From: a virus
Lineage: Duplodnaviria; Caudoviricetes
Reading direction: 5' to 3' (one strand)
Virus record (IMG/VR): IMGVR_UViG_3300006115_000011
Location: 1-56,657 of that record
Length of the DNA: 56,657 nt
The notes below the pieces were generated by a model. It had not been told where the DNA came from. It was given only the letters and a program-made list of their open reading frames with translations, and did no database searches. The stretch's first letter is position 1. Every line of letters begins with the position of its first letter. The translations under genes were made by a program, and so were the position numbers. Below are positions 16,359 to 50,327 of this stretch, piece after piece.

Positions 16359-17273
16359 ATGGCAGCTCCAATGCGTAGTACGGACTTCCGAAGTATCGTT
16401 GAACCAATCCTTAATGAATGCTTCGATGGCGTATATGATCAACGTACCGATGAATGGTCACGCGTTTTCCGTGAACAAGACGGTATTCCAAGAAACTATC
16501 ACGAAGAACCAGTTCTTTACGGTTTCGGCACAGCACCACAGTTACCTGATGGCACACCAGTGTCTTATCAACAAGGTGGTGTTCTCTTCTTACAACGTTA
16601 TGTTTACCAAGTTTACGGACTTGCGTTTGCATTAACGAAAGTTCTTGTAGAAGATGGTGACCATATCCGTATCGGACAAGTTTATGCAAGACACTTAGCA
16701 CAATCTTTAATTGAAACTAAAGAAACACTTTGCGCTAACATTCTTAACAATGCATTTAACTCTTCATACACAGGTGGCGACGGCGTTCAATTGAACTCTA
16801 CAGCTCACCCAATCGTTAACGGCACTGTAAGTAACTTACTTTCAACTGCTGCTAACCTTTCACAAACATCACTTGAACAAATGTTAATTCAAATCCGTCA
16901 AGCTGTTGACAACAACGGTAAGAAGATTCGTTTAGTACCAAGACAACTTGTTGTTGCTCCTGGTAACATTTTCCAAGCTGAAGTATTGTTAAAATCTGTT
17001 TTAAGAACAGGTACTGCTAACAACGACGTAAACCCAATTAAATCAATTGGTTTATTAGATGAAGGCGCTGCTGTTCTTTCACGTTTAACATCTTCAACAG
17101 CATGGTGGGTTCAAACAGATGCTCCAGAAGGTATGAAGCTCTTAATGCGTCGTAAGTTAGAAAAAACTATGGAAGGTGACTTTGAAACAGATTCAATGCG
17201 TTACAAAGCTACTGAGCGTTATATTCCAGGTTGGACTGACTGGCGTGCAATGTTTGGTACTCCAGGCGTTTAA
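16359..17273 (+). CDS. Major capsid protein (HK97 fold)
   Basis: Strong SD AGGAGG; biased codon use; C-terminal DFETDSMRYKATERY...DWRAMFG; followed by a terminator. Confidence 0.9.
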   Translation: MAAPMRSTDFRSIVEPILNECFDGVYDQRTDEWSRVFREQDGIPRNYHEEPVLYGFGTAPQLPDGTPVSYQQGGVLFLQRYVYQVYGLAFALTKVLVEDGDHIRIGQVYARHLAQSLIETKETLCANILNNAFNSSYTGGDGVQLNSTAHPIVNGTVSNLLSTAANLSQTSLEQMLIQIRQAVDNNGKKIRLVPRQLVVAPGNIFQAEVLLKSVLRTGTANNDVNPIKSIGLLDEGAAVLSRLTSSTAWWVQTDAPEGMKLLMRRKLEKTMEGDFETDSMRYKATERYIPGWTDWRAMFGTPGV

Positions 17274-17352: not shown

Positions 17353-18333
17353 ATGCCACAATTTAGTGACGATCTGTTTTTAGGTTCAGCAAAAACCTTT
17401 ATGGGCATCGCTAAACAGGATTCAACTTCTGTTTTCACAGGCTCAATTGCAACAACAACATTAACTGTTACAGCTATGTTATCTGGCGATCCATTGGTCG
17501 TTGGTCAATATATTACTGGTGCTAACGTTTCAGCAGGTACTTACATTACTGCATTCGTTTCAGGCACAGGTGGTACTGGTACATACACTGTTAACACTTC
17601 ACAAACTGCTGCTAGCGCAACTGTTTACGCTAACGGTAATGCTTTATTAGGTGATCCAGCTCCAATGGACTTAGGTATTGGCCCATTAGGTCGTATCTAT
17701 ATATGGGACACAATCCCTGTTACTAAAGCTAATAACAACGTATCAGCTGCTGCTACATATTCAGCTGCAGGTTCTGCAACACTTGCTGCAGGTACAGGCA
17801 CTTCATCTGTAACACGTACAGACGGCACAACAGTAATTCAATTAGACGTACCACGTGGTCTTTCAATCACAATTGGTACAGGTACAATTACAAACCGTAA
17901 CGTAACTATTTCAGGTTATGACTATTATGGCCAAGCAATGACTGAAATCATCGCAACAGGCACTACACAATCTACAACTATCAACGGTAAAAAAGCTTTC
18001 TACCAAGTTTCTGGTGCAACAGTATCAGGCGCAGTAGGCGGTACAGTTGCTATTGGTACATCAGACGTTTTAGGTTGCCCTGTTCGTTTCATTGACAGAG
18101 GTTATCTTGATAGCGTGGGTTGGAATAACGTTCTTGCTGAAGATGTTGCTACTACAGTAGTTGCTGATTTAACAAACCCAGCTACATCATCAACTGGTGA
18201 CGTACGCGGCACAATCACTCCATCAAGCTCACCTGATGGCACTAAACGTTTAGTTGTTGGTATTTACTTACCAGCTATCGCTGTAGGCCCAAATGCAACA
18301 CGACTTGGCGCTCTTGGCGTAGACCAAGCTTAA
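17353..18333 (+). CDS. Virion structural protein with one intact 'FTGSI...TGTYTVN' beta domain
   Basis: Thr/Gly-rich, directly after the capsid gene; shares a domain with 25702-27117. Confidence 0.7.
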
Positions 18334-22313: not shown

Positions 22314-25300
22314 ATGGCTAATGTACAGATAACCCAATTACCACAGGCTGGAGCAATTACAGGAACTGAAGCCGTACCTATAGTGCAGAATGGCGTAACA
22401 GTTCAAACAACAACTGGCAACATAGCAGGATCACCTACACAAACTGCTTCATTCTTAGAAGTTAGTTTATCAGGCACTACACCTAATGCACGTTATCTAG
22501 CTCCAAACGGAACATTAACAGCTATAGACGGTGGCTCTGGATCATCTTATTCATTAGGTATTGCATCAAACGTAGCGTTACCTGGTACTGCTGGTGCAGT
22601 TCTTCCAACAGGAACTACAGCTCAACGTGGCGGTACAAACGGACAAATTCGTTATAACTCAGATGTAGGTATATTTGAAGGCCAAGCAAACGGCGGATGG
22701 ATTACATTAGGTAACCCAAATGCATCTTCTATTAATATTACAGCAAGCACTGGTATCACATTAACACCAAATCCAATTACACAATCTGGAACGGTTGCTA
22801 TTTCAAATACTGGAGTTACACCTGGATCATATGGATCAGGTACAGCTATTCCAACATTTACTGTTAACGCACAAGGTCAACTCACAGCAGCTGGATCAGT
22901 TTCTGTAAGCTTCTTAAACTACTTAGGTACATGGAACGCTTCAACTAATACACCAACGCTTACATCAGGCACAGGCGTTAAAAACTCATACTATGTAGTA
23001 TCAGTTGCTGGTACGACAACACTTGATGGCATTTCATTATGGTCAGTAGGTGATTGGGCCATCTTTAATGGCACTGTATGGGAAAAAGTAAACGGTTCAT
23101 CATCCGAAGCATTCAATACAATTACTTTAGTAGGTGCTATATCAGCATCATCTAACATAGGTGCATTATCTTACGGAACTTTAAGTTATTCAGATACAAA
23201 CATATTTGCATCTTTTGCTAACAGTGTTAATGCATACAATCAAATCGTATTACAAAACAAGAGTAACGGCGCATCAGCTTCTACAAACTTTAATATTTCT
23301 AACGATCAAGCATCAGCAACTACTAACTATGGTGAGTTTGGTATTAACTCATCAGGATTTAGTGGAACAGGCGCATTTAACACAGCAGGTAGCGTATATC
23401 TAGCTGCAGCTTCTACAGATTTAGCAATAGGTACTTATGGCTCTAACGCTATCCACTTTGTTGTAAATAGTGGTGCTACAGACGCTATGACCATTAATAC
23501 TTCTAATGCAGTAGCATTTAATGGATTATACGGAACATCTGGACAAGTATTAACATCAGGCGGATCAACAGGAACACCTACATGGGTATCTCAAAGCTCT
23601 CTTGGCGTAACAATTACAGTTGGCACTACACCTGTAGCAAGCGGAACTTCTGGTTACATACTTTATAATAATGCAGGAGTATTAGGTAACTTATCAACAA
23701 CAGGAACTGCTGGATCCGTAGTTTTATCTAACTCTCCAACAATTGCTACACCTACATTCTCAACATCTGCTACAACACCATTGCTTCTTGGTGGAACAAC
23801 TGCTACATCATCATTAACATTACAATCAACATCTGGCACTGGTACAACAGATTCAATTCTATTTAAAGTTGGCACGAATGGATCATTAACACCATTATCA
23901 ATCAATGATGCTTCTGGTTCACCTAACTTAACTATAGCATCAAGCACAAAAATAATTGGTGACTTTAGCAACACTACATTAACAAGCAGAACTGTATTTA
24001 CATCATCAGCTACTAATAGTAATCCTGGTATTTATGTTATTCCAAACGGAACTGCAACAGCTGCTTCATGGCAGGCCGCTAATAATTCAACAATAACCAA
24101 TGCATCTAAGATTCTTATTGCTACTAATGGAACTACCGATGTTCAATTAGTTTCAGGTGTTAATGGAACTGGTAGCTACTTACCATTATCTTTCTATAAT
24201 GGCGGCTCACAACTCATGCAGTTGGGTACTTCAGCAACATCAACTAACTTTGCAATTGGTTTAAGCACATCACCATCAACATCTATTAACTTACTTGTAG
24301 GTGGATCAGGATCTATTACAGGTGCTACAACGGCATGGGCAAGCTTATTTAATGGAACTATTGCATCAACCGTAACTGCTTTTGCAGGAGCCGTAGAATC
24401 ACAAGTTTCTGCATCAGCTGCATCATTTACATTATCACAATTAGCTCATTTCTATGCTAACCCTAACGCAGGTGGTTCTGGATCAACAGTTACTTCACAA
24501 TACGGATTCTTTGCTGAATCAACCATTGGTACACAAGGTGGCGCAACAGTAACCAATGCTTATGGCTTCTATAGCAATATAGCTTCAGGAACTAATAAAT
24601 ACGGATTCTATAATGCTGGTAATGCGGCCAATAACTTAGGCACTGGATCTACATCTATTGGAACATTAACATTATCAAATGCTTTAGGTGTAACTTATGG
24701 TGGCACTGGAACTTCAACTGCTCCTACTGTAGGTGCTATTCCTTATGGCGCAAGCACAACGGCCTTAGCTTATTTAGCAGGTAATACAACCACAACACCA
24801 CAGTTCTTAACATCAACTGGCACAGGTTCTGCTGCACAAGCACCAACATTAACAAGCTCTACTGGATCAGGTAACGTAGTATTAGCAACGTCACCAACAA
24901 TTACTGGTACACCTTCTATCGGTACAGCAGGTAGCACTACAACATTATTAGGTAATATTTCAGCAACTACTGCATCACAAACTGTAACTATTACACCATC
25001 TGGTTTAGTAACAATATCACCTACTGGTGGTTTAACAATTTCACCTACAACAGTTGCTGGTACTATTAACAATACTTCAATTGGTGTTACAACGGCAGCA
25101 GCTGGTAACTTTACAACAATAGGTGCTTCATCTACTGGCACTGGTGCATTTACTACATTAACAGCTTCTACATCAGTATCAACGCCAGCTATGGCTTCTG
25201 GTAGCGTATTGCAAATATCAGCTGGTAAAACAGCAGTTACTTCCCTTACATTATCAGGTACAGCTCAATCATTTGGTACATCACTTGCTGGTCAAACATT

Positions 25301-25701: not shown

Positions 25702-27117
25702 ATGGCACAAACTGGATATACACCAATACTACTTTATTACAGCACATCAGCTGGAGTAACTCCTTCCGCTTCTAACTTGGCTAATGGTGAGTTAGCTCTT
25801 AATGTTACTGACGGAAAACTTTTCTTTAATCAAGGCGGAACAGTACAAACATTAGCAAGTACTGCAACTACCGATCCAACTAATGTAAATATTACTGGCG
25901 GTAAAATTAATGGCACAAGCATTGGCTATACAACACAATCTGGTGGCGTATTTAATGCGCTTGTAGATACTGCATTAACGCAAAACCAAGTTCTTTATAC
26001 TGGTTATGCTGGCCTATTATCTGGAAGCTCTGCATTTACATTTAATCCAACAACCAATATAACAACGCATACTGGATCTATTTCTGTAGGCGCTGACTCT
26101 CAATTTACATCCACTGGATCATTACAAATTCCAACTGGAACAACATCACAACGTCCAAGCCCAATATCTAATGCTGGTTTAATACGTTTTAATACTACTT
26201 TATTTACGTTTGAAGGTTTTGCATCAACCGCAACAAACGCAATTACAGCATCTATCAGTAACGGTTCAGGCCAAGCTGGTACAACACTTAACGTATCTTC
26301 AGTTACATCATCAACACTTGCCGTAGGCCAATACATTACAGGCACAGTAGGCGGTACTTCATTTACTGGCGCTATTTCAGGAACAACACTAACTGTAAGC
26401 GCAGTGGCTTCTGGATCATTGGCAGTAGGAACAATCGTGTCTGGATCATCTACTGCATCAGTTGCAGGTTATATTAGTAATGGCACATCAGGAACGGCTG
26501 GAACTGTATTAACAGTAACATCAGTTACTTCAGGTGCTTTAGCTGTAGGAACTTATATTACAGGCACAGGCGTAAGCGTAGGCACACAAATTACTGCATT
26601 AGGAACTGGTACAGGCGGCACAGGAACATACACTGTAAACGTATCTCAAGTAGTAGGCACATCAGGCACTCCTGTAACATTTACTGGAACATCTATTGTT
26701 GCCACTAATACAACAATTACAGCGCTTGGAACAGGAACTGGCCAAACAGGTACATATACTGTAAATACATCACAATATATTCCATCAACATCAAGTTTAT
26801 CTGGATCTATACAAATAGCATCTGGAACGCAAATTACAGCGCTAGGCACAGGTACAGGTGGCACAGGTACTTATACAGTTAATAACTCACAATTAGTTCC
26901 AAACGGTTCATTAACATCAGTGACTGGTATTTGGGGATCAATTGGTGGTGGTGCTACAGGCTCAGGCGGTGATACTGTGTTCTACATTAACAGTAATACG
27001 ATTACAACATCGTATACATTGCCAACTGGTAAAAATGCAATGTCTACTGGCCCAATTACATTGAACGCTTCACAAACAGTTACAATACCTTCTGGTCAAC
27101 GTTACGTAGTTCTATAG
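25702..27117 (+). CDS. Tail fibre protein with three nested beta-domain copies
   Basis: [17 protein letters not shown]-terminus; three [22 protein letters not shown] repeats; [10 protein letters not shown]-terminus. Confidence 0.85.
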
Positions 27118-27125
27118 GATAAAAC

Positions 27126-27755
27126 ATGGCAGCGATTATTAATGCAAACTCAACTGGACTTATATATACACCTGATAACTCTGGAACATTACAGTTACAA
27201 ACAGGCGGTACAACAGCATTAACTATTAACTCATCACAGTTAGTAACCTTTGCTAATCCTCCAGCAATTACAGGCGCTGTTACTTTAGGTACATCACTTA
27301 CAACTCCAATATTAACATCTACTGGATCGCTTACATTACAGTCTGGAAGCACTAACGCATTAGTATTAGATACATCACAAAACTTACAGTTTAATAGTGG
27401 CTTTGGCTCTGTTGCTACAGCTTACGGTTGCCGCGCATGGTGTAATCTTACATGGAACGGAACTACATTAACAATTCGTGGTAGTGGTGGCGTATCTTCT
27501 GTATCACGTATATCTACTGGCGTATATCAAATTAACTTTTCAACAACTATGCCAGATGCTAACTATTGCGTAGTTGGAACATCTGCTCAATATAACGCAT
27601 CAGCTGCTATACCCGCTAATGTTTTATGTGAATATTTATCGGCATCTAATACATTTGCTTATAAAACAACAACAGGTGTTCAAGTATATAACGGTGATAA
27701 TAATACTGATGCAGCCGAAGACTCATTTTCATGTAATGTAGCTATATTTAGGTAA
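27126..27755 (+). CDS. Tail fibre tip/receptor-binding protein, paralogue 1
   Basis: GCRAWCN...SGGVSSV...GVYQINF...MPDANY. Confidence 0.75.
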   Translation: MAAIINANSTGLIYTPDNSGTLQLQTGGTTALTINSSQLVTFANPPAITGAVTLGTSLTTPILTSTGSLTLQSGSTNALVLDTSQNLQFNSGFGSVATAYGCRAWCNLTWNGTTLTIRGSGGVSSVSRISTGVYQINFSTTMPDANYCVVGTSAQYNASAAIPANVLCEYLSASNTFAYKTTTGVQVYNGDNNTDAAEDSFSCNVAIFR

Positions 27756-27760
27756 ACATC

Positions 27761-28402
27761 ATGGCATCCATAATTAACGCCAGTAAAAATAGCGGAATTG
27801 TAAGTAGCTCTGATGGAACAAATGCTTTACAGTTGCAAACATATAATGTCCCAGCAATTTCTGTTAACTCATCACAAGTGGCCACAATTAGCGGACCAGT
27901 ATCAAGTACAACATTAGGCACTGGAATTACAAGTTTTCAAACGCCATTGGTTACAACATCTGGAACATTAACATTACAGTCAAACTCAACTGCTGGATTA
28001 ACATTAGATACATTTCAAACTTTAAGGTTTAATAGCGGTTTTGGATCTAACGCTATTGCTTTTGGATGTCGTGCTTGGGTAAATTTTGGATATAACGGAA
28101 CTAATATTGTTGTTAGAGGAAGTGGAAATATAGCTTCTGTAACAAGGATTTCTGGACAAGCAACAGGAGTATTTCAAATAGCTTTTATTAATCCAATGCC
28201 AGATGCTTTATATTCAATTGTGGGAAGCGCTTGTGTCTATAGTGCTGGTTTTGGAGTTTCTTCAGCTCTCATTGTTAGTGAATGGCAACCTGGATCTCAA
28301 GAAGTTATAAGAACAAACACATTTATTCAAATAGCCACAATTGATAATTCTAGCGACACTTTATTTGATCCATGGTCATGTAACATTGCAATTTTTAGAT
28401 AA
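27761..28402 (+). CDS. Tail fibre tip/receptor-binding protein, paralogue 2
   Basis: Collinear with 27126-27755 (FNSGFGS...GCRAWVN...MPDA...SCNIAIFR). Confidence 0.75.
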   Translation: MASIINASKNSGIVSSSDGTNALQLQTYNVPAISVNSSQVATISGPVSSTTLGTGITSFQTPLVTTSGTLTLQSNSTAGLTLDTFQTLRFNSGFGSNAIAFGCRAWVNFGYNGTNIVVRGSGNIASVTRISGQATGVFQIAFINPMPDALYSIVGSACVYSAGFGVSSALIVSEWQPGSQEVIRTNTFIQIATIDNSSDTLFDPWSCNIAIFR

Positions 28403-28411
28403 GGAAAAAAT

Positions 28412-28864
28412 ATGAGTAATTTTGTTTTAAATGGAGATTCAAGCGGTAGCTTAACATTACAAGCTCCATCGGTAGCAGGTTCTACTGTTGCTACATTTCA
28501 AGCAGTCACAGGTAACGTTCAAGTTGACGGTGGCCCAGTAAGTGATAATCAAGGTAACGTACGTTCAACACCAATTAACTCACAAACAACTGCTTACACA
28601 TTAGTTGCTACTGATAACGGTAAAACAATATCAATCACTACTGGCGGCGTAACAGTTCCAGCAGCAATATTTAGCGCTGGTAACATTATTAGCATTTATA
28701 ACAACTCAGCATCAGCGCAAACTATTACGCAAGGTACAAGTGCTACCATGACATTAGCTGGTACTGTAACAACTGGTAACAGAACATTGGCTGCTAACGG
28801 TATTGCAACAGTATTATGCGTAGCATCTAACACGTTTGTTATCTCTGGAGCAGGTCTAAGCTAA
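28412..28864 (+). CDS. Tail fibre-associated protein
   Basis: LxGDSSGSLTLQAP...YTLVATDNGK...ISGAGLS. Confidence 0.7.
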   Translation: MSNFVLNGDSSGSLTLQAPSVAGSTVATFQAVTGNVQVDGGPVSDNQGNVRSTPINSQTTAYTLVATDNGKTISITTGGVTVPAAIFSAGNIISIYNNSASAQTITQGTSATMTLAGTVTTGNRTLAANGIATVLCVASNTFVISGAGLS

Positions 28865-30792
28865 TGAGCTTGTTGTCTACAACATTAAGTAGTGCATCAT
28901 CGACGTCAACAGTAAATACGTTTTCACTTGTTACGTCTGTTCAAACTACTGGTAATTCAATTACATTTCCAACAGGAACTCAAGCTGGTGATATAGCTTT
29001 TATATTTAACTTAGGCTCAGGCACTTCATCAACCAACGTTACACCAACAGGTTGGACAAGCATTGTTTCTAACACTGGTGGAACTACAACAAACAGAAGA
29101 ACCCAAAATATTTCTTATAAAATATTAAACGGAACTGAATCTGGAACAATTACTTGTAATGCAGGAGTCTCAGGTAGCAGCTCAATATATCTTATAGTTT
29201 TTAGAGGAATAAGCCCTTTAGCTTCTATTACAGTAGGAAGCTTAAATACTGCCTGCCAAACCACAACGCCAACCAATCAAACTTTAGCTTTAAATTCTGG
29301 AACAGTTCCAATTCTTGCATTTGCTTATTTTGCAAGTAGTGTAACTATGTCAGCCCATAGCGTATCTCCAACAACATTTACTGACGTTTCTGTTAGTTCT
29401 GGAGGTTATCCAGTTTATGTTGACTATGCAATATTAAATTCTGGAACGCTTGTAAGTAATACAGTATCAATAACTGCTACTGGCACTCAAGCCATGTCTT
29501 CATTTTACATTCAGCCAACATTTGCATCTCTTGTAACTACTAACTTAAAACTTAGCTACGATCCACAATACCAACAAAACAATAACACAACTATTCAGGA
29601 TTTATCAGGTAACGGCAATACTGGCGTATTACAAAGCAGTCCTGCATATATATCGCCAACAGGAAATCCGCAGCGTAATTATTGGCAATGTTCAGGCGGT
29701 GGACAATATATATCCACAACCACATCACAGACATCACCTAATGCATTTACGATATCTGCATGGTTTAACAGTAATGTTACTGGCGGTGTTGGAAATATTA
29801 TAGGGTTTACAACATCTCAAACAGGTATTGGTGACACTATCTACGACAGAAGCTTGCAGCTAACATCAACTGGAGCTGTTAACTTTTATATGTTTAGCCC
29901 AACTGCAACACCTGCAAATAGCAACGTTACAAGCTCATTTAATCAATATAATGATGGTGCATGGCATCAAGCTACTGCTACATATGATGGCACTACAATG
30001 ACTTTATATGTTGACGGAGTATCTACAGGAACACCTGTAACTATAACTGCGCCCACTAACACTCAAACTTATACTGGCTATTGGAAAATAGCAGCTGGAG
30101 TTAGCAGTGGATCAACTGCTGGCTACATGAATACAGCCATAGGCCCAGTGCAAGTTTATAGCGTTGCCTTATCCGCATCTCAAGTATTAAACAATTACAA
30201 CGCTCAAGCATTTAGATACAAAGTTGCATTCAGCGCTTCTGGTGCAAGTACTTCATCATTTACAACTGTTTCTGGAGTATCTAGCGCTGCTGGATCTGGT
30301 CAACCTGCTGGACCTAACCAATTTAATGCTGCCACAAACCAATATGCTGTAAGTCCAATAAGTACAGCAAGTGGAAGCTTATTAAATACAACTATTCAAT
30401 TCTGGGTTTTTTCTCAATTTTTATCAAACAATGCAAACACAAGTGGAACTGTAACTGTGTTTTTAGGTGTTAACTCAAGCTATCAGGGTTTAGCTATAAG
30501 AATGCAAACAAGCAATCCACCTTATTTTGTATATTCTTATACCGCAACTAACAATGCATCAGGTTATATTTCATGGGGATTTTTATCAAATAACTTTCCA
30601 ACAAATACTTGGGTGCTTGTAAAAATACAAATAAACTCACAAGGCTATGCATCAGTTTATATAAATAACATTCTTCAAGGAAATAATATATATATAGCAA
30701 ATGCTATTCAAGGTAATTATGTTGGAATTTCAGGTGACTACCAAACTGGTGGAGCATTTCAAAACTTTACAGTAACTAACGGAATTATATAA
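28864..30792 (+). CDS. Tail-associated protein with a LamG/concanavalin A-like domain
   Basis: DLSGNGNTG, FTISAWF, DGAWHQATATYDG...LYVDG, YSVALSASQVLNNY. Confidence 0.8.
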   Translation: MSLLSTTLSSASSTSTVNTFSLVTSVQTTGNSITFPTGTQAGDIAFIFNLGSGTSSTNVTPTGWTSIVSNTGGTTTNRRTQNISYKILNGTESGTITCNAGVSGSSSIYLIVFRGISPLASITVGSLNTACQTTTPTNQTLALNSGTVPILAFAYFASSVTMSAHSVSPTTFTDVSVSSGGYPVYVDYAILNSGTLVSNTVSITATGTQAMSSFYIQPTFASLVTTNLKLSYDPQYQQNNNTTIQDLSGNGNTGVLQSSPAYISPTGNPQRNYWQCSGGGQYISTTTSQTSPNAFTISAWFNSNVTGGVGNIIGFTTSQTGIGDTIYDRSLQLTSTGAVNFYMFSPTATPANSNVTSSFNQYNDGAWHQATATYDGTTMTLYVDGVSTGTPVTITAPTNTQTYTGYWKIAAGVSSGSTAGYMNTAIGPVQVYSVALSASQVLNNYNAQAFRYKVAFSASGASTSSFTTVSGVSSAAGSGQPAGPNQFNAATNQYAVSPISTASGSLLNTTIQFWVFSQFLSNNANTSGTVTVFLGVNSSYQGLAIRMQTSNPPYFVYSYTATNNASGYISWGFLSNNFPTNTWVLVKIQINSQGYASVYINNILQGNNIYIANAIQGNYVGISGDYQTGGAFQNFTVTNGII

Positions 30793-48227: not shown

Positions 48228-49007
48228 TTATTTGTATTTGTTCTTATGTTGCCAGAACTGTAGGAGGGCATAAAACATTTCCCATCCACGTTTGAGATCT
48301 TCTTCAGACCAATCTATGATGTGACAAAGGCCAGGCGTAGTGCGCGAAACAAATATATTCGCACATCTCGCTTCGGGTATACCTAGCCCAACACGATATG
48401 CAGCTAACTGCATCATATGCTCATCATAACCCTTTACATCAGAAATGTCACTAAAGTCCTTAGTTTTTATATCCACAACGATCCCTTGATTTTCTGGATA
48501 ATGTAAGTCACATTTACCAGCGAAACCTAATTCATGGCCGAAAGAACGTTCAGCAATCCATCCAATCCTTCCATAATGAGCTTCTAACGCACGAACGCAA
48601 CCTTGTGTATGCTCTTGATACTCATTTGATACTCGGCCCTCATAAAACGATTCTATAGCGGTATGAATAGCAGTACCTCTATCGGCAGCATCTTTACCTT
48701 GTTTTTTAGAGTCGGCAATAATACGATCAATGTATTGAGCTTCAGTTTCGGCAGCAAGCTTAGTTGAAGTAAGTGCAGCCATAAGAACTTGTGTTTGCAT
48801 CCAAGCCACTAAAGCTGGTTTTGCAGCAGCTCCAATAATTGTAGTTACGGAAGGTACAAGGTTAAGTTCGCGAGCGTCACGTAGTGTTGCATTGCGTTCT
48901 TTTCCATTCTTACCCACAACTGTATACGTTGGTATACCATCGCGCGTATACCAGTGATTTGATTCTGAAGCTCTTACTTTAGGTGTTTCGGATGCATACA
49001 AGCTCAT
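48228..49007 (-). CDS. PD-(D/E)XK exonuclease (RecE/Cas4-like recombination nuclease)
   Basis: PSVTTI, RGTAIH, E...AGKCD...VVDIKT, QLAAY. Confidence 0.88.
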   Translation of the reverse strand: MSLYASETPKVRASESNHWYTRDGIPTYTVVGKNGKERNATLRDARELNLVPSVTTIIGAAAKPALVAWMQTQVLMAALTSTKLAAETEAQYIDRIIADSKKQGKDAADRGTAIHTAIESFYEGRVSNEYQEHTQGCVRALEAHYGRIGWIAERSFGHELGFAGKCDLHYPENQGIVVDIKTKDFSDISDVKGYDEHMMQLAAYRVGLGIPEARCANIFVSRTTPGLCHIIDWSEEDLKRGWEMFYALLQFWQHKNKYK

Positions 49008-49699
49008 TGTCTATCCTTAGTTTGTTTCATACGTTTATAAAAATCTAACAACTCGCGCTGAAACCAGCCAAGTTTACCCACATCCTTTTCAGGATCATCT
49101 TTGTAACCAATACGACTACCATACTTAAATATAGAACCTTTAAGATAACCTCGATACTCTTCTGGCGTTAGCTTAGCTTTAATAAAATCAATAGTCTCTA
49201 TCCCACCTACTTTATAGTGGCTAGGGTTATTGACCATATCTTGTTCAACTTTTTTTGCTTCTTTAATTTCAACATGTCTTTCTTTGTGACAAGGATCACA
49301 TAGCCACCAAACTTCTAATGGCTTGTCGTAATTTTCATGATGGGCCACTGATCTTTCTTCACCGCAGCGCTCACAAGGTTGCTTGATTAGCGTGCCATCT
49401 TTTAAAGCTCTATGAACTTTTTGATGAGCTGCTGGCCTGCGCTTATCTGCATGTAACCAGTCATGTATGTAAGCAATCCTTTTTTTTCTTTTTGTAGGAT
49501 CTTTCATAACTTCCTTTGCATAATCACTTTGATATTTTCTATAAGCTACTCTATCTTTATTATGCATACTAATAACATAAGCAGATTGACATGGTTTACA
49601 TGATGTATTCAATCTATCTTTTGTTGTTTTATGCGCAGAAAATTCGCTAATAGGTTTAGAAATATTGCATTTTTTGCAAATTTTAAAATGGGAGGTCAT
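49004..49699 (-). CDS. HNH endonuclease fused to DUF3310 (T7 gp1.7-like nucleotide kinase domain)
   Basis: CKKC...CKPC, CERCG...AHHENY...WLCDPCH; C-terminal VNNPSHY..GGIETIDFI...KY..R..K. Confidence 0.8.
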   Translation of the reverse strand: MTSHFKICKKCNISKPISEFSAHKTTKDRLNTSCKPCQSAYVISMHNKDRVAYRKYQSDYAKEVMKDPTKRKKRIAYIHDWLHADKRRPAAHQKVHRALKDGTLIKQPCERCGEERSVAHHENYDKPLEVWWLCDPCHKERHVEIKEAKKVEQDMVNNPSHYKVGGIETIDFIKAKLTPEEYRGYLKGSIFKYGSRIGYKDDPEKDVGKLGWFQRELLDFYKRMKQTKDRQ

Positions 49700-50327
49700 T
49701 TTCCATGTCCTCAAAGTCAGCAGAATTTGCGCCTGACGCAACTTTTCCATGTAACCTTTCCCACTCTGGAGACATTCTAATTTTTTCTTTTAACTTATCT
49801 GAGAATGACTCAAACAATTCCATGTCAGCTTCATTGATGTCAAAAATCTTTAATTCATTAACACCTTCTGGCAAGCCTGCTTTTTTAATAGTAGGAAGCA
49901 CTGGCATGATTGTTGCTATATTAGTATAGTTATTTCCGTTTTGACCTTGACTAATAACAACAGACAACATTCCCCAAACACCTAATACATTTTTAATTTC
50001 AAATGTTTTTACTTCATCTGGTGTAAAAGGTTTGCCACGCCACGATTCTAAGTCTTTACGCAATGAAGACATTTCAGCAGTAGATAAGGTGTAAGTTTTA
50101 GAAAGTGATAATGGTTTGCCTTCGTTTGTTTTTGTTGGGTTACCATTTTCATCTTCTGAGTGAATTTCAAATTGAAACATTGCTTTATGTAAATGCTTAA
50201 CAACACCTTTATACTCAGACTTTTGCGTTCCTAAATCAATCACTCTATACAATCTAGCAAGATGTATGCCAGGTGGTACTTGCACAAAATCTTTACTATT
50301 ACTATTTCCAGTAGCTACTAAACTCAT
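49683..50327 (-). CDS. Putative single-stranded DNA-binding protein
   Basis: IDLGTQ...LRKDLESWRG motif; acidic C-terminal tail DFEDMENDLPF. Confidence 0.7.
   Translation of the reverse strand: MSLVATGNSNSKDFVQVPPGIHLARLYRVIDLGTQKSEYKGVVKHLHKAMFQFEIHSEDENGNPTKTNEGKPLSLSKTYTLSTAEMSSLRKDLESWRGKPFTPDEVKTFEIKNVLGVWGMLSVVISQGQNGNNYTNIATIMPVLPTIKKAGLPEGVNELKIFDINEADMELFESFSDKLKEKIRMSPEWERLHGKVASGANSADFEDMENDLPF

What the first reader, a model, noticed from the sequence alone, without database searches (positions are those of the whole stretch)
26221..26931. Russian-doll tail fibre: three copies of one domain nested inside each other
Seen: protein 17353 has an intact domain A+B ([27 protein letters not shown] / ANVSAG / [22 protein letters not shown]). 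In the 471-aa fibre the three A halves come first (ITASISNG...[22 protein letters not shown]...[18 protein letters not shown]...[10 protein letters not shown]), then the three B halves ([57 protein letters not shown]). This suggests the order A1-A2-A3-B3-B2-B1. The whole block is itself inserted between FEGF and WGSIGG of a fibre motif that is uninterrupted in gene 22314 ([13 protein letters not shown]). Inference: repeated insertion into the same loop builds a telescoping, double-tethered stalk rather than a tandem chain.
Basis: seen in the sequence. Interest (0 to 1): 0.7.

Follow-up and report, generated by a model that had tools for sequence, protein, structure and literature searches.

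The report
Triple self-nested barrel domain in phage fibre
A phage tail-fibre protein carries three copies of one small beta-barrel domain inserted inside one another like Russian dolls, a rare but previously known type of protein architecture seen here in an unnamed, widespread virion-surface domain.

Summary
In the 471-aa fibre protein (window 25702-27117), residues 174-410 lie between FEGF and WGSIGG. A profile of the ~58-aa domain ("D") matches them as three N-halves, then three C-halves, the innermost pair contiguous.

Nesting is supported by comparison, not by a 3D model.
- Two homologues (P0003/P0004) have a two-level nest in the same loop. They differ from this protein by about 83 aa, equal to one whole D plus linkers.
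- In the listed homologues, 160 of 163 have that loop at 3-6 aa.
- Two unrelated proteins have three-level nests split at different loops. Their halves close in last-in-first-out order with complementary boundaries.
- The copies are old and under purifying selection.

An intact D folds as a six-stranded barrel (pLDDT 90.4). Its three loops coincide with the three observed insertion sites. The nearest solved structure is the capsid decoration protein of phage Bridgette.

AlphaFold2 on the whole protein failed (pLDDT 43). A split-half complex test gave only weak support.

Homotypic nested insertion is already known from the Si3 insertion of cyanobacterial RNA polymerase. I therefore rate this a new variant of a known kind, of moderate interest.

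The parts
25702..27117 (+). Tail-fibre / receptor-binding-type gene, 471 aa (P0002)
   Evidence: ORF. PHROG tail-fibre hits. It lies in a run of fibre-like genes downstream of terminase, portal and capsid genes.
25702..25857 (+). Conserved N-terminal anchor, aa 1-52
   Evidence: This is the only part shared (64-71% identity) with fibre genes of related viral and metagenome contigs. Their distal parts differ.
26182..26220 (+). [13 protein letters not shown]: first half of the C-terminal tip module, up to loop 1
   Evidence: The motif is followed by 3-6 aa and then WG in 160 of 163 homologues.
26242..26346 (+). A1: strands 1-3 of the outer barrel (aa 181-215, long type)
   Evidence: HMM 5-30. 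Aligns with the outer N-half of P0003/P0004.
26362..26448 (+). A2: strands 1-3 of the middle barrel (aa 221-249, short type)
   Evidence: HMM 1-~30. Aligns with the N-half of the inner copy of P0003/P0004.
26461..26688 (+). D3: innermost, contiguous barrel (aa 254-329: A3, loop, B3 and sixth strand)
   Evidence: HMM 2-60, E 5.2e-21. E 7.2e-12 in the own-genome search. Absent from P0003/P0004.
26689..26805 (+). B2: rest of the strand 3-4 loop and strands 4-6 of the middle barrel (aa 330-368)
   Evidence: HMM 27-58. Its tail aligns with the tail of the inner copy of P0003/P0004.
26806..26931 (+). B1: rest of the strand 3-4 loop and strands 4-6 of the outer barrel (aa 369-410)
   Evidence: HMM 27-59. 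The tail SQLVPNG..VTGI before WG aligns with the outer C-half of P0003/P0004.
26932..27114 (+). [10 protein letters not shown]...GQRYVVL: second half of the conserved C-terminal tip module (aa 411-471)
   Evidence: 26 invariant columns, all in aa 411-469, in alignment A2. Matches tail-fibre genes of Methylophilales and cyanophages.
17434..17607 (+). Intact reference copy of the domain in P0001 (aa 28-85)
   Evidence: AlphaFold2 model of aa 18-95 has pLDDT 90.4.
22647..22712 (+). Uninterrupted RYN...FEG..GGW motif in the 1128-aa fibre gene

Best explanation
The fibre protein ends in a conserved tip module (RFNT..FEG[FY] - short loop - WG..GGGATG ... G.RWVVL). Its first loop, normally 3-6 residues, holds a 237-residue insert.

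The insert is three copies of one ~65-residue six-stranded beta-barrel domain (D), each placed inside the strand 3-4 loop of the copy before it. Along the chain this reads: strands 1-3 of barrel 1, strands 1-3 of barrel 2, the whole of barrel 3, strands 4-6 of barrel 2, strands 4-6 of barrel 1.

Shown here:
- the sequence order of the pieces;
- the complementary profile boundaries;
- the two-level and zero-level homologues;
- purifying selection on all pieces;
- the barrel fold of an intact copy.

Inferred:
- Each split copy refolds from its two halves.
- The barrel has an even number of strands joined by short loops. Its two ends should therefore lie on one face and the strand 3-4 loop on the opposite face. 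On that argument the three barrels stack head to tail into a side branch, each joined to the next by two chain crossings.
- If the fibre is a trimer, its tip would display nine barrels.
- Relatives of D sit on capsid decoration, cement, capsid and fibre proteins. The branch most likely gives reach and multivalent, low-affinity binding to host surface glycans. Alternatively it acts as a rigid spacer.

The nest most likely grew by in-frame insertion of a whole D-coding segment into a two-level ancestor like P0003/P0004.
For: - Profile hits give three N-halves and then three C-halves, with the innermost pair contiguous. Four of the five pieces were recovered independently.
- P0003/P0004 (451/453 aa) carry outer-half / whole D / outer-half in the same loop. 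The global alignment to P0004 places essentially one large gap (~83 aa in all) between A2 and B2.
- Loop 1 is 3-6 aa in 160 of 163 motif-bearing proteins.
- P0220 reads a(2-17) a(1-38) D b(43-64) b(16-60). P0141, read from a merged alignment piece (348-411 = consensus 2-59, which I split by eye) plus the clean pieces, reads a(2-17) a(1-~30) D b(30-65) b(16-63). That is 2 of 2 proteins with distinguishable levels closing last-in-first-out with complementary boundaries.
- I counted 13 of 145 D-bearing proteins as having a split D around other copies (counts; read by eye). In a set found with a contiguous D as query, 6 of 120 had partial pieces, of which I read 4 as clear.
- The 19-codon cores of B1 and B3 differ at 13 codons, all synonymous. 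DNA identity between copies is 63-68%.
- The AlphaFold2 model of an intact copy has pLDDT 90.4 and pTM 0.78, with strands at 8-27, 36-39, 47-51 and 59-77. Its three loops (28-35, 40-46, 52-58) coincide with the three insertion points seen in natural proteins, at about consensus 17, 30 and 42.
- Split-half test, A1 (aa 174-215) with B1 (aa 370-410): verdict weak support. Score 0.34, best of 3 controls 0.00. The mark was reached by 116 of 157 solved complexes and 2 of 215 mismatched pairs. At 0.60 or under it was reached by only 18 of those 157 and by both mismatches that passed. The runs agree in at least 97% of contacts and the partner pLDDT is at least 72. My own alignments were used, so the counts hold only roughly.
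- The ESM Atlas holds its own model of this protein with mean pLDDT 0.74 and pTM 0.45. I could not inspect it.
Against: - There is no 3D model of the nested region. AlphaFold2 with a 13-row alignment gave mean pLDDT 43, with residues 165-427 all under 50.
- The tools return no coordinates. The adjacency of the barrel's two ends and the stacking geometry are argued from strand parity, not seen.
- My coupling analysis on 192 sequences (effective number 113) was dominated by gap columns and is inconclusive.
- The three C-half cores are nearly identical, so sequence alone cannot say which C-half joins which N-half in this protein. The assignment rests on alignment to P0003/P0004 and on analogy with P0141 and P0220. 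The alignment to P0003 places the inner C-half on B3, not B2.
- No one-level form with D in this loop was found.
- Function (glycan binding or spacer) and trimer state are untested.
- The complex test gave only weak support.
Confidence: 0.8

Rival explanations
1. The halves pair between the chains of the fibre trimer. An N-half of one chain completes a barrel with a C-half of a neighbouring chain, locking the trimer.
For: Fibres of this kind are usually trimers (general knowledge, not tested here). No tool result shows that pairing is within one chain. The complex test used separate chains and cannot tell the two cases apart.
Against: The junctions are short: 4-5 residues on the N side and none beyond the native loop on the C side. 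This fits a compact insertion within one chain. The same nests occur in proteins without the fibre tip module, such as P0141 and P0220.
Confidence: 0.08
2. The extra halves are orphans left by partial tandem duplications (A to AAA, B to BBB). They do not refold into barrels and form a loose or extended beta region.
For: AlphaFold2 gave no fold for the region. AABB can in principle arise from two separate duplications.
Against: - The numbers of N- and C-halves are equal and their boundaries are complementary.
- All 13 differing codons between the B1 and B3 cores are synonymous.
- The difference from P0003/P0004 equals one whole domain.
- Relatives close last-in-first-out at different split points.
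- The pLDDT of each half rose from 36-40 and 37 with unrelated partners to 71 and 73 together, within a test whose verdict is weak support (score 0.34, best control 0.00; counts as given under the best explanation).
Confidence: 0.07
3. The barrels form within one chain but in a crossing order, for example A1 with B2 and A2 with B1.
For: The C-half cores are almost identical, so chemistry alone would allow it.
Against: B1's tail and A1 align with the single outer copy of P0003/P0004, where pairing is unambiguous. Successive insertions can only give nested orders. Both proteins with distinguishable levels are nested, 2 of 2.
Confidence: 0.03
4. The arrangement is an assembly or frame artefact within a repetitive gene.
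For: Repeats can be mis-assembled in metagenomes.
Against: - The copies are only 63-68% identical in DNA.
- The reading frame is open for 471 codons.
- The protein is on 13 contigs.
- An independent contig is identical over aa 179-471.
- An 83%-identical homologue keeps the same order.
Confidence: 0.01

Closest known systems
Si3 insertion of cyanobacterial RNA polymerase beta-prime (nested sandwich-barrel hybrid motifs, SBHM)
   Same: Copies of one small beta domain are inserted into each other inside a loop of a host module, forming a long arm. Passages of PMC10895346 state that there are eight SBHMs and that SBHM-2 to -5 are built from distant parts of the chain. The arm is 150 A long. The abstract and passages of PMC13114784 report a six-level nested architecture.
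   Different: The fold is different (I did not test SBHM directly). The host is a cellular enzyme rather than a virion fibre. Here all three levels use one loop, while relatives use two other loops as well. No structure exists here.
Capsid decoration protein Gp7 of Arthrobacter phage Bridgette (PDB 8ECI)
   Same: It is the best solved match to the intact domain. Foldseek gives E 1.2e-2, TM 0.68 and 27% identity over 81 columns. VIA-align gives Z 7.1, rmsd 4.6 A, 71 aligned and 31% identity. It is a virion-surface accessory protein; passages of bioRxiv 10.1101/2022.09.09.507160 describe it as dimers around the pentamer.
   Different: It is a single, uninterrupted copy on a capsid. The scores are moderate and no sequence search links the two.
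Six-stranded barrels of translation factors (EF-Tu domain II, IF2), the P22 coat I-domain and the E1 FCCH domain
   Same: Same general barrel, aligned end to end: Z 5-6 for IF2 and EF-Tu-type chains, Z 4.6 for the P22 I-domain, and weak Foldseek rows for Uba1. From memory, the P22 I-domain and FCCH are themselves inserted domains, which would fit ends that lie together.
   Different: Z under 8 may reflect only a common arrangement. Pfam E1_FCCH matched 1 of 62 family members, at E 0.064 and below the cutoff.
Tandem arrays of the same domain
   Same: The same domain with the same conserved motifs. Of 261 collected proteins, 71 have one copy and 60 have 2-8 contiguous copies.
   Different: In a tandem array the chain runs on from copy to copy. 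In the nest the chain returns to its starting point, so the whole block can sit in a loop of a folded module.

Membership tests
Nested homotypic domain insertion (architecture class, as in RNA polymerase Si3) | The host domain's sequence is interrupted by a complete copy of the same domain | tested here: met
   Profile coordinates; alignment to the two-level homologues.
Nested homotypic domain insertion (architecture class, as in RNA polymerase Si3) | Halves close in last-in-first-out order with complementary boundaries | tested here: met
   In this protein all levels split at the same point, so the order follows from alignment to P0003/P0004. It is seen directly in P0220 and, with one merged piece split by eye, in P0141.
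Nested homotypic domain insertion (architecture class, as in RNA polymerase Si3) | Split halves reassemble into the domain fold in 3D | tested here: inconclusive
   The AlphaFold2 model of the whole protein is unusable (pLDDT 43). The split-half complex test gave weak support only: 0.34 against 0.00 for the best control.
Unnamed virion-surface beta-barrel domain D (part of phrog_38233 and phrog_21413) | Significant profile match over the whole domain | tested here: met
   phrog_38233 at 2.1e-18 and phrog_21413 at 6.1e-18, with 3 stretches each. My own HMM.
Unnamed virion-surface beta-barrel domain D (part of phrog_38233 and phrog_21413) | Six-stranded barrel fold | tested here: met
   Met for the intact copy in P0001 only (pLDDT 90.4). 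16 BFVD models match at E<=1e-3; the closest (ranks 1-10) have TM 0.84-0.89.
Pfam E1_FCCH (PF16190) | Score above the Pfam gathering cutoff | tested here: not met
   No hit for P0001 or P0002 at E<=0.1. 1 of 62 relatives hit, at E 0.064.
EF-Tu domain II-like translation-protein barrels | Clear structural match standing above background | tested here: inconclusive
   Z 5-6 with rmsd 2.4-5 A. The tool notes that Z under 8 may be only a common arrangement.
Phage tail fibre / receptor-binding protein | Position in the virion structural module, a conserved N-terminal anchor with exchangeable distal part, and a tail-fibre C-terminal module | tested here: met
   Gene neighbourhood. Only aa 1-52 is shared with related contigs. 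The C-terminal 45-48 aa match annotated tail-fibre genes.
Phage tail fibre / receptor-binding protein | Trimeric assembly and host binding | not testable with these tools
   No host is known.

The most novel reading that the evidence does not exclude
D may be a recursively self-inserting module. On this reading, phage surface proteins build branched, double-tethered projections by inserting whole copies of one barrel into any of its three loops, up to at least three levels deep. This could happen wherever a tandem chain cannot be used, namely inside loops of folded modules.

Insertion after the strand 3 end may be helped by the shared I-T-G-T-like endings of strand 3 and strand 6, which could guide in-frame patch insertion from tandem arrays.

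If true, nesting depth would be an evolvable dial for the reach and valency of receptor-binding tips. The domain would also be a natural scaffold for designed nested proteins.
Probability: 0.3. Interest if true: 0.65.

Novelty: new variant of a known kind. Interest (0 to 1): 0.5.

Why it matters
The domain family is large. The whole fibre query matched 5560 cluster representatives at E<=1e-3; some of these match only its end modules. The family has no Pfam or NCBIfam model and no solved structure detectable by sequence.

The family provides a natural series with nesting depths of 0, 2 and 3, and with three different insertion loops. That makes it a clean system for three questions:
- how discontinuous domains fold;
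- how domain insertion arises in evolution;
- how phages vary their fibre tips.

It also shows that standard alignment-based structure prediction fails on such nests unless the alignment is threaded level by level.

It does not reveal a new principle. Nested insertion of one fold into itself is already known from the Si3 insertion of RNA polymerase.

Tried and rejected
- AlphaFold2 on the whole protein with a 13-row MAFFT alignment gave mean pLDDT 43 and an unfolded insert. It cannot be used as a test.
- I did not fold the insert with a deep alignment of contiguous copies. MAFFT joins A2 to B3 in such rows, as seen. That would feed the predictor a false pairing.
- Sequence searches of the PDB found nothing, either with the protein or with a 62-row profile.
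- Mean-field coupling analysis of 192 domain sequences was run to find which strands touch. The top pairs were driven by gap columns, so it is inconclusive.
- I looked for close orthologues with other nesting depths. The viral contig scan gave 9 loci and the metagenome scan 11. All but one identical contig share only aa 1-52 or a short stretch. Two that I read have unrelated distal parts.
- tblastn against deposited phage genomes gave 11 records, none covering more than 16% of the query. BLAST's low-complexity filter may hide the domain.
- No one-level D insertion in loop 1 was found. P0150 has an ~83-aa insert of another kind in that loop.
- The earlier-findings index returned nothing.
- Three literature searches for nested or Russian-doll insertions found no description of this domain or of nests in phage fibres.
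- P0001 against a Phage_cement-family protein shares only the D domain.

Full report
**What is at the coordinates**

The window is a complete 56,657-bp virus record. It carries a terminase gene (4513), a portal gene (10536) and a capsid-like gene (16359). A long run of fibre-like genes follows.

The ORF 25702..27117(+) encodes a 471-aa protein, P0002. FEGF is aa 170-173 and WGSIGG is aa 411-416, so the flagged nt 26221-26931 is exactly aa 174-410. That includes the intact copy in the product of ORF 17353 (P0001) and the uninterrupted FEGQANGGW motif in ORF 22314 (aa 112-133).

**The repeat pattern is real**

I built a 58-position profile of the domain, here called D, from 219 instances in the first homologue list. 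It matches P0002 as follows:

| Residues | Profile positions | E-value |
|---|---|---|
| 191-215 | 5-30 | 1.4e-6 |
| 221-268 | 1-48 | 2.7e-9 |
| 262-319 | 2-60 | 5.2e-21 |
| 327-359 | 27-58 | 3.2e-10 |
| 366-399 | 27-59 | 6.8e-12 |

This is three N-halves followed by three C-halves, with the innermost pair contiguous.

A translated search of the record with the P0001 copy recovered four of these five pieces and missed the first N-half.

The DNA of the copies is only 63-68% identical. The 19-residue cores of B1 and B3 are identical in protein. They differ at 13 of 19 codons, all synonymous. The copies are therefore old and held by selection on the protein.

The arrangement recurs elsewhere:
- The protein is on 13 contigs.
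- An independent contig is identical over aa 179-471.
- An 83%-identical fragment, P0122, keeps the same order.

**Evidence that the order is a nest**

*Zero-level forms.* The tip module RFNT..FEG[FY]-loop-WG..GGGATG is widespread. In the 121 proteins of the first list, 84 carry the module. Of these, 81 have a loop of at most 10 aa. With a looser pattern over 261 proteins, 160 of 163 have 3-6 aa. P0011 is a zero-level form with the same N-terminus as P0002.

*Two-level forms.* P0003 and P0004 have 154 aa in this loop, arranged as N-half, whole D, C-half. In global alignment their outer halves match A1 and B1, including the distinctive tail before WG. Their inner copy matches A2. Its tail matches the tail after B2. 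With P0004, P0002 carries essentially one extra block of about 83 aa between A2 and B2. That block is one whole D plus linkers. With P0003 the aligner splits the gap and puts the inner C-half on B3 at a similar score, which reflects how alike the C-halves are.

*Nests elsewhere in the family.* I read 13 of 145 D-bearing proteins as having a split D wrapped around other copies (counts; pieces read by eye). In a set retrieved with a contiguous D as query, 114 of 120 proteins have only contiguous copies and 6 have partial pieces. I read 4 of those 6 as clear nests.

*Distinguishable levels.* Two proteins, P0220 and P0141, have three levels that are split at different loops. In one search:
- P0220 reads consensus 2-17, 1-38, whole D, 43-64, 16-60.
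- P0141 reads 2-17, 1 to about 30, whole D, 30-65, 16-63. Its first two pieces came out as one merged alignment (348-411), which I split by eye.

In both the halves close in last-in-first-out order with complementary boundaries. A crossing order would give the reverse. Other proteins hold two tandem copies inside a split copy (P0050, P0009). Others are split at the strand 2-3 loop (P0054) or the strand 4-5 loop (P0089).

**The fold of the domain**

AlphaFold2 on the whole P0002 with 13 aligned rows failed. Mean pLDDT was 43 and residues 165-427 were all under 50.

The intact copy of P0001 (aa 18-95) was folded with 61 whole-protein relatives, after I checked the alignment column by column. It gave pLDDT 90.4 and pTM 0.78. 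Strands lie at 8-27, 36-39, 47-51 and 59-77, which I read as six strands. The three non-strand stretches (28-35, 40-46, 52-58) coincide with the three insertion points seen in natural proteins. This is an independent consistency check.

The model also shows a sixth strand after the conserved TYTV..SQ. The 20-23-residue 'linkers' after each C-half in P0002 therefore contain that strand, and the true junctions are short.

With six strands joined by short loops, both chain ends should lie on one face of the barrel and the strand 3-4 loop on the other. That would stack child on parent. This is inference, because no coordinates are returned.

**Relatives of the fold**

- Foldseek against the PDB gave no match at E<=1e-3. 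The best row is the 124-aa chain of 8ECI at E 1.2e-2, TM 0.68 and 27% identity.
- VIA-align ranks the same entry first, with Z 7.1, rmsd 4.6 A and 71 aligned. Next come a Pyrococcus protein (Z 6.8) and IF2 or EF-Tu-type barrels (Z 5-6). The P22 I-domain is at Z 4.6. All are under the Z 8 that the tool treats as clearly meaningful.
- Passages of bioRxiv 10.1101/2022.09.09.507160 identify the 8ECI chain as the decoration protein Gp7 of phage Bridgette.
- Against predicted viral structures, 16 models match at E<=1e-3; the ten closest have TM 0.84-0.89. They include proteins named as capsid, tail-fibre, P22 gp10-like and giant-virus collagen-like.
- No Pfam or NCBIfam model matches D.
- No PDB chain is found by sequence.

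**Split-half test**

I gave A1 (aa 174-215) and B1 (aa 370-410) to the complex predictor as two chains, each with a 62-row alignment. The verdict was weak support:
- Score 0.34; best of 3 controls 0.00.
- The mark was reached by 116 of 157 solved complexes and 2 of 215 mismatched pairs.
- At 0.60 or under it was reached by only 18 of the 157 and by both passing mismatches.
- The runs agree in at least 97% of contacts and the partner pLDDT is at least 72.
- The counts hold only roughly, because my own alignments were used.

With unrelated partners the pLDDT of the halves was 36-40 and 37. Together it was 71 and 73. The test cannot tell B1 from B2 or B3.

**What it most likely does**

P0002 looks like a receptor-binding fibre built as a cassette. 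Only its first 52 residues are shared with fibre genes of related contigs, whose distal parts are unrelated. Its last 45-48 residues match annotated tail-fibre genes of Methylophilales phages and cyanophages.

The nest sits in a loop of the tip module. A tandem chain could fit there only by folding back on itself. P0005-like proteins do hold two tandem copies, in the second loop of the module. A nest returns the chain to its starting point at every level and can project outward.

I infer a three-barrel side branch on each chain of the tip, used for reach and multivalent weak binding to the host surface, or as a spacer. Trimer state, binding and host are untested.

**Comparison with what is known**

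Nested insertions are catalogued in PMC13114784, whose abstract and passages report six-level nests in cyanobacterial RNA polymerase. The crystal structure of that Si3 insertion shows eight SBHM domains. Four of them are built from distant chain segments, and together they form a 150-A arm (passages of PMC10895346). The principle is therefore known.

What is new here:
- the fold and family, which are unnamed and abundant on virions;
- the setting in a phage fibre tip;
- the natural series of depths 0, 2 and 3;
- the use of three insertion loops.

Three full-text searches found no description of it. Subscription journals are not covered by those searches.

**Verdict**

The nested reading is supported with confidence of about 0.8. 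The geometry and the function are inferred. I rate it a new variant of a known kind, with interest 0.5.

Noticed in passing
window 17353-18333 (+): P0001 (326 aa) carries the intact D domain at aa 28-85. It lies directly after the capsid-like gene. Orthologues of 324 aa (74-76% identity over the aa 18-95 stretch used as query) are common. The rest of the protein has no family hit. It may be a head decoration protein, by analogy with Bridgette Gp7.
   Followed up: partly
window 16359-17273 (+): This 304-aa product matches only the C-terminal (capsid) part of the NCBIfam models for protease/major-capsid fusion proteins (E 3.4e-12, far below the cutoff) and PHROG major head families. It is probably the major capsid protein.
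   Followed up: partly
P0150 (403 aa), loop 1 of its tip module: The same FEGY...WG loop holds an insert of about 83 aa that does not match D. The loop therefore accepts different inserts.
   Followed up: no
P0303 (315 aa), aa 146-212: In a protein with the Pfam Phage_cement family, D sits in the middle of the chain. It is the only part similar to P0001. D is thus also inserted into other host domains.
   Followed up: partly
window 27126-27755 and 27761-28402 (+): Two adjacent paralogous genes (209 and 213 aa) with similar N-termini. Both match the C-terminal part of a PHROG tail-fibre family, phrog_11355.
   Followed up: no
window 28864-30792 (+): A 642-aa protein with a concanavalin A-like lectin/glucanase domain (Laminin_G_3, E 1.5e-18) in the fibre gene run.
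   Followed up: no
L016 2501-3265 and L021 2501-3928: Fibre genes of related contigs share only the first ~52 residues with P0002. Their distal parts are unrelated (254 and 475 aa). This suggests cassette exchange behind a fixed anchor.
   Followed up: partly
window 26332-26346, 26677-26691, 26797-26808: The end of strand 3 (ITGT) and the ends of the sixth strands (FTGT, LSGS) look alike. Every insert begins just after the first motif and ends with the second. This may be a pseudo-repeat inside the barrel or a guide for in-frame insertion. Untested.
   Followed up: no
window 49004-49750 (-): This 248-aa product combines an endonuclease-type N-terminal part (phrog_2340, E 4e-30) with a nucleotide-kinase-type C-terminal part (phrog_236, E 2.6e-21).
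   Followed up: no
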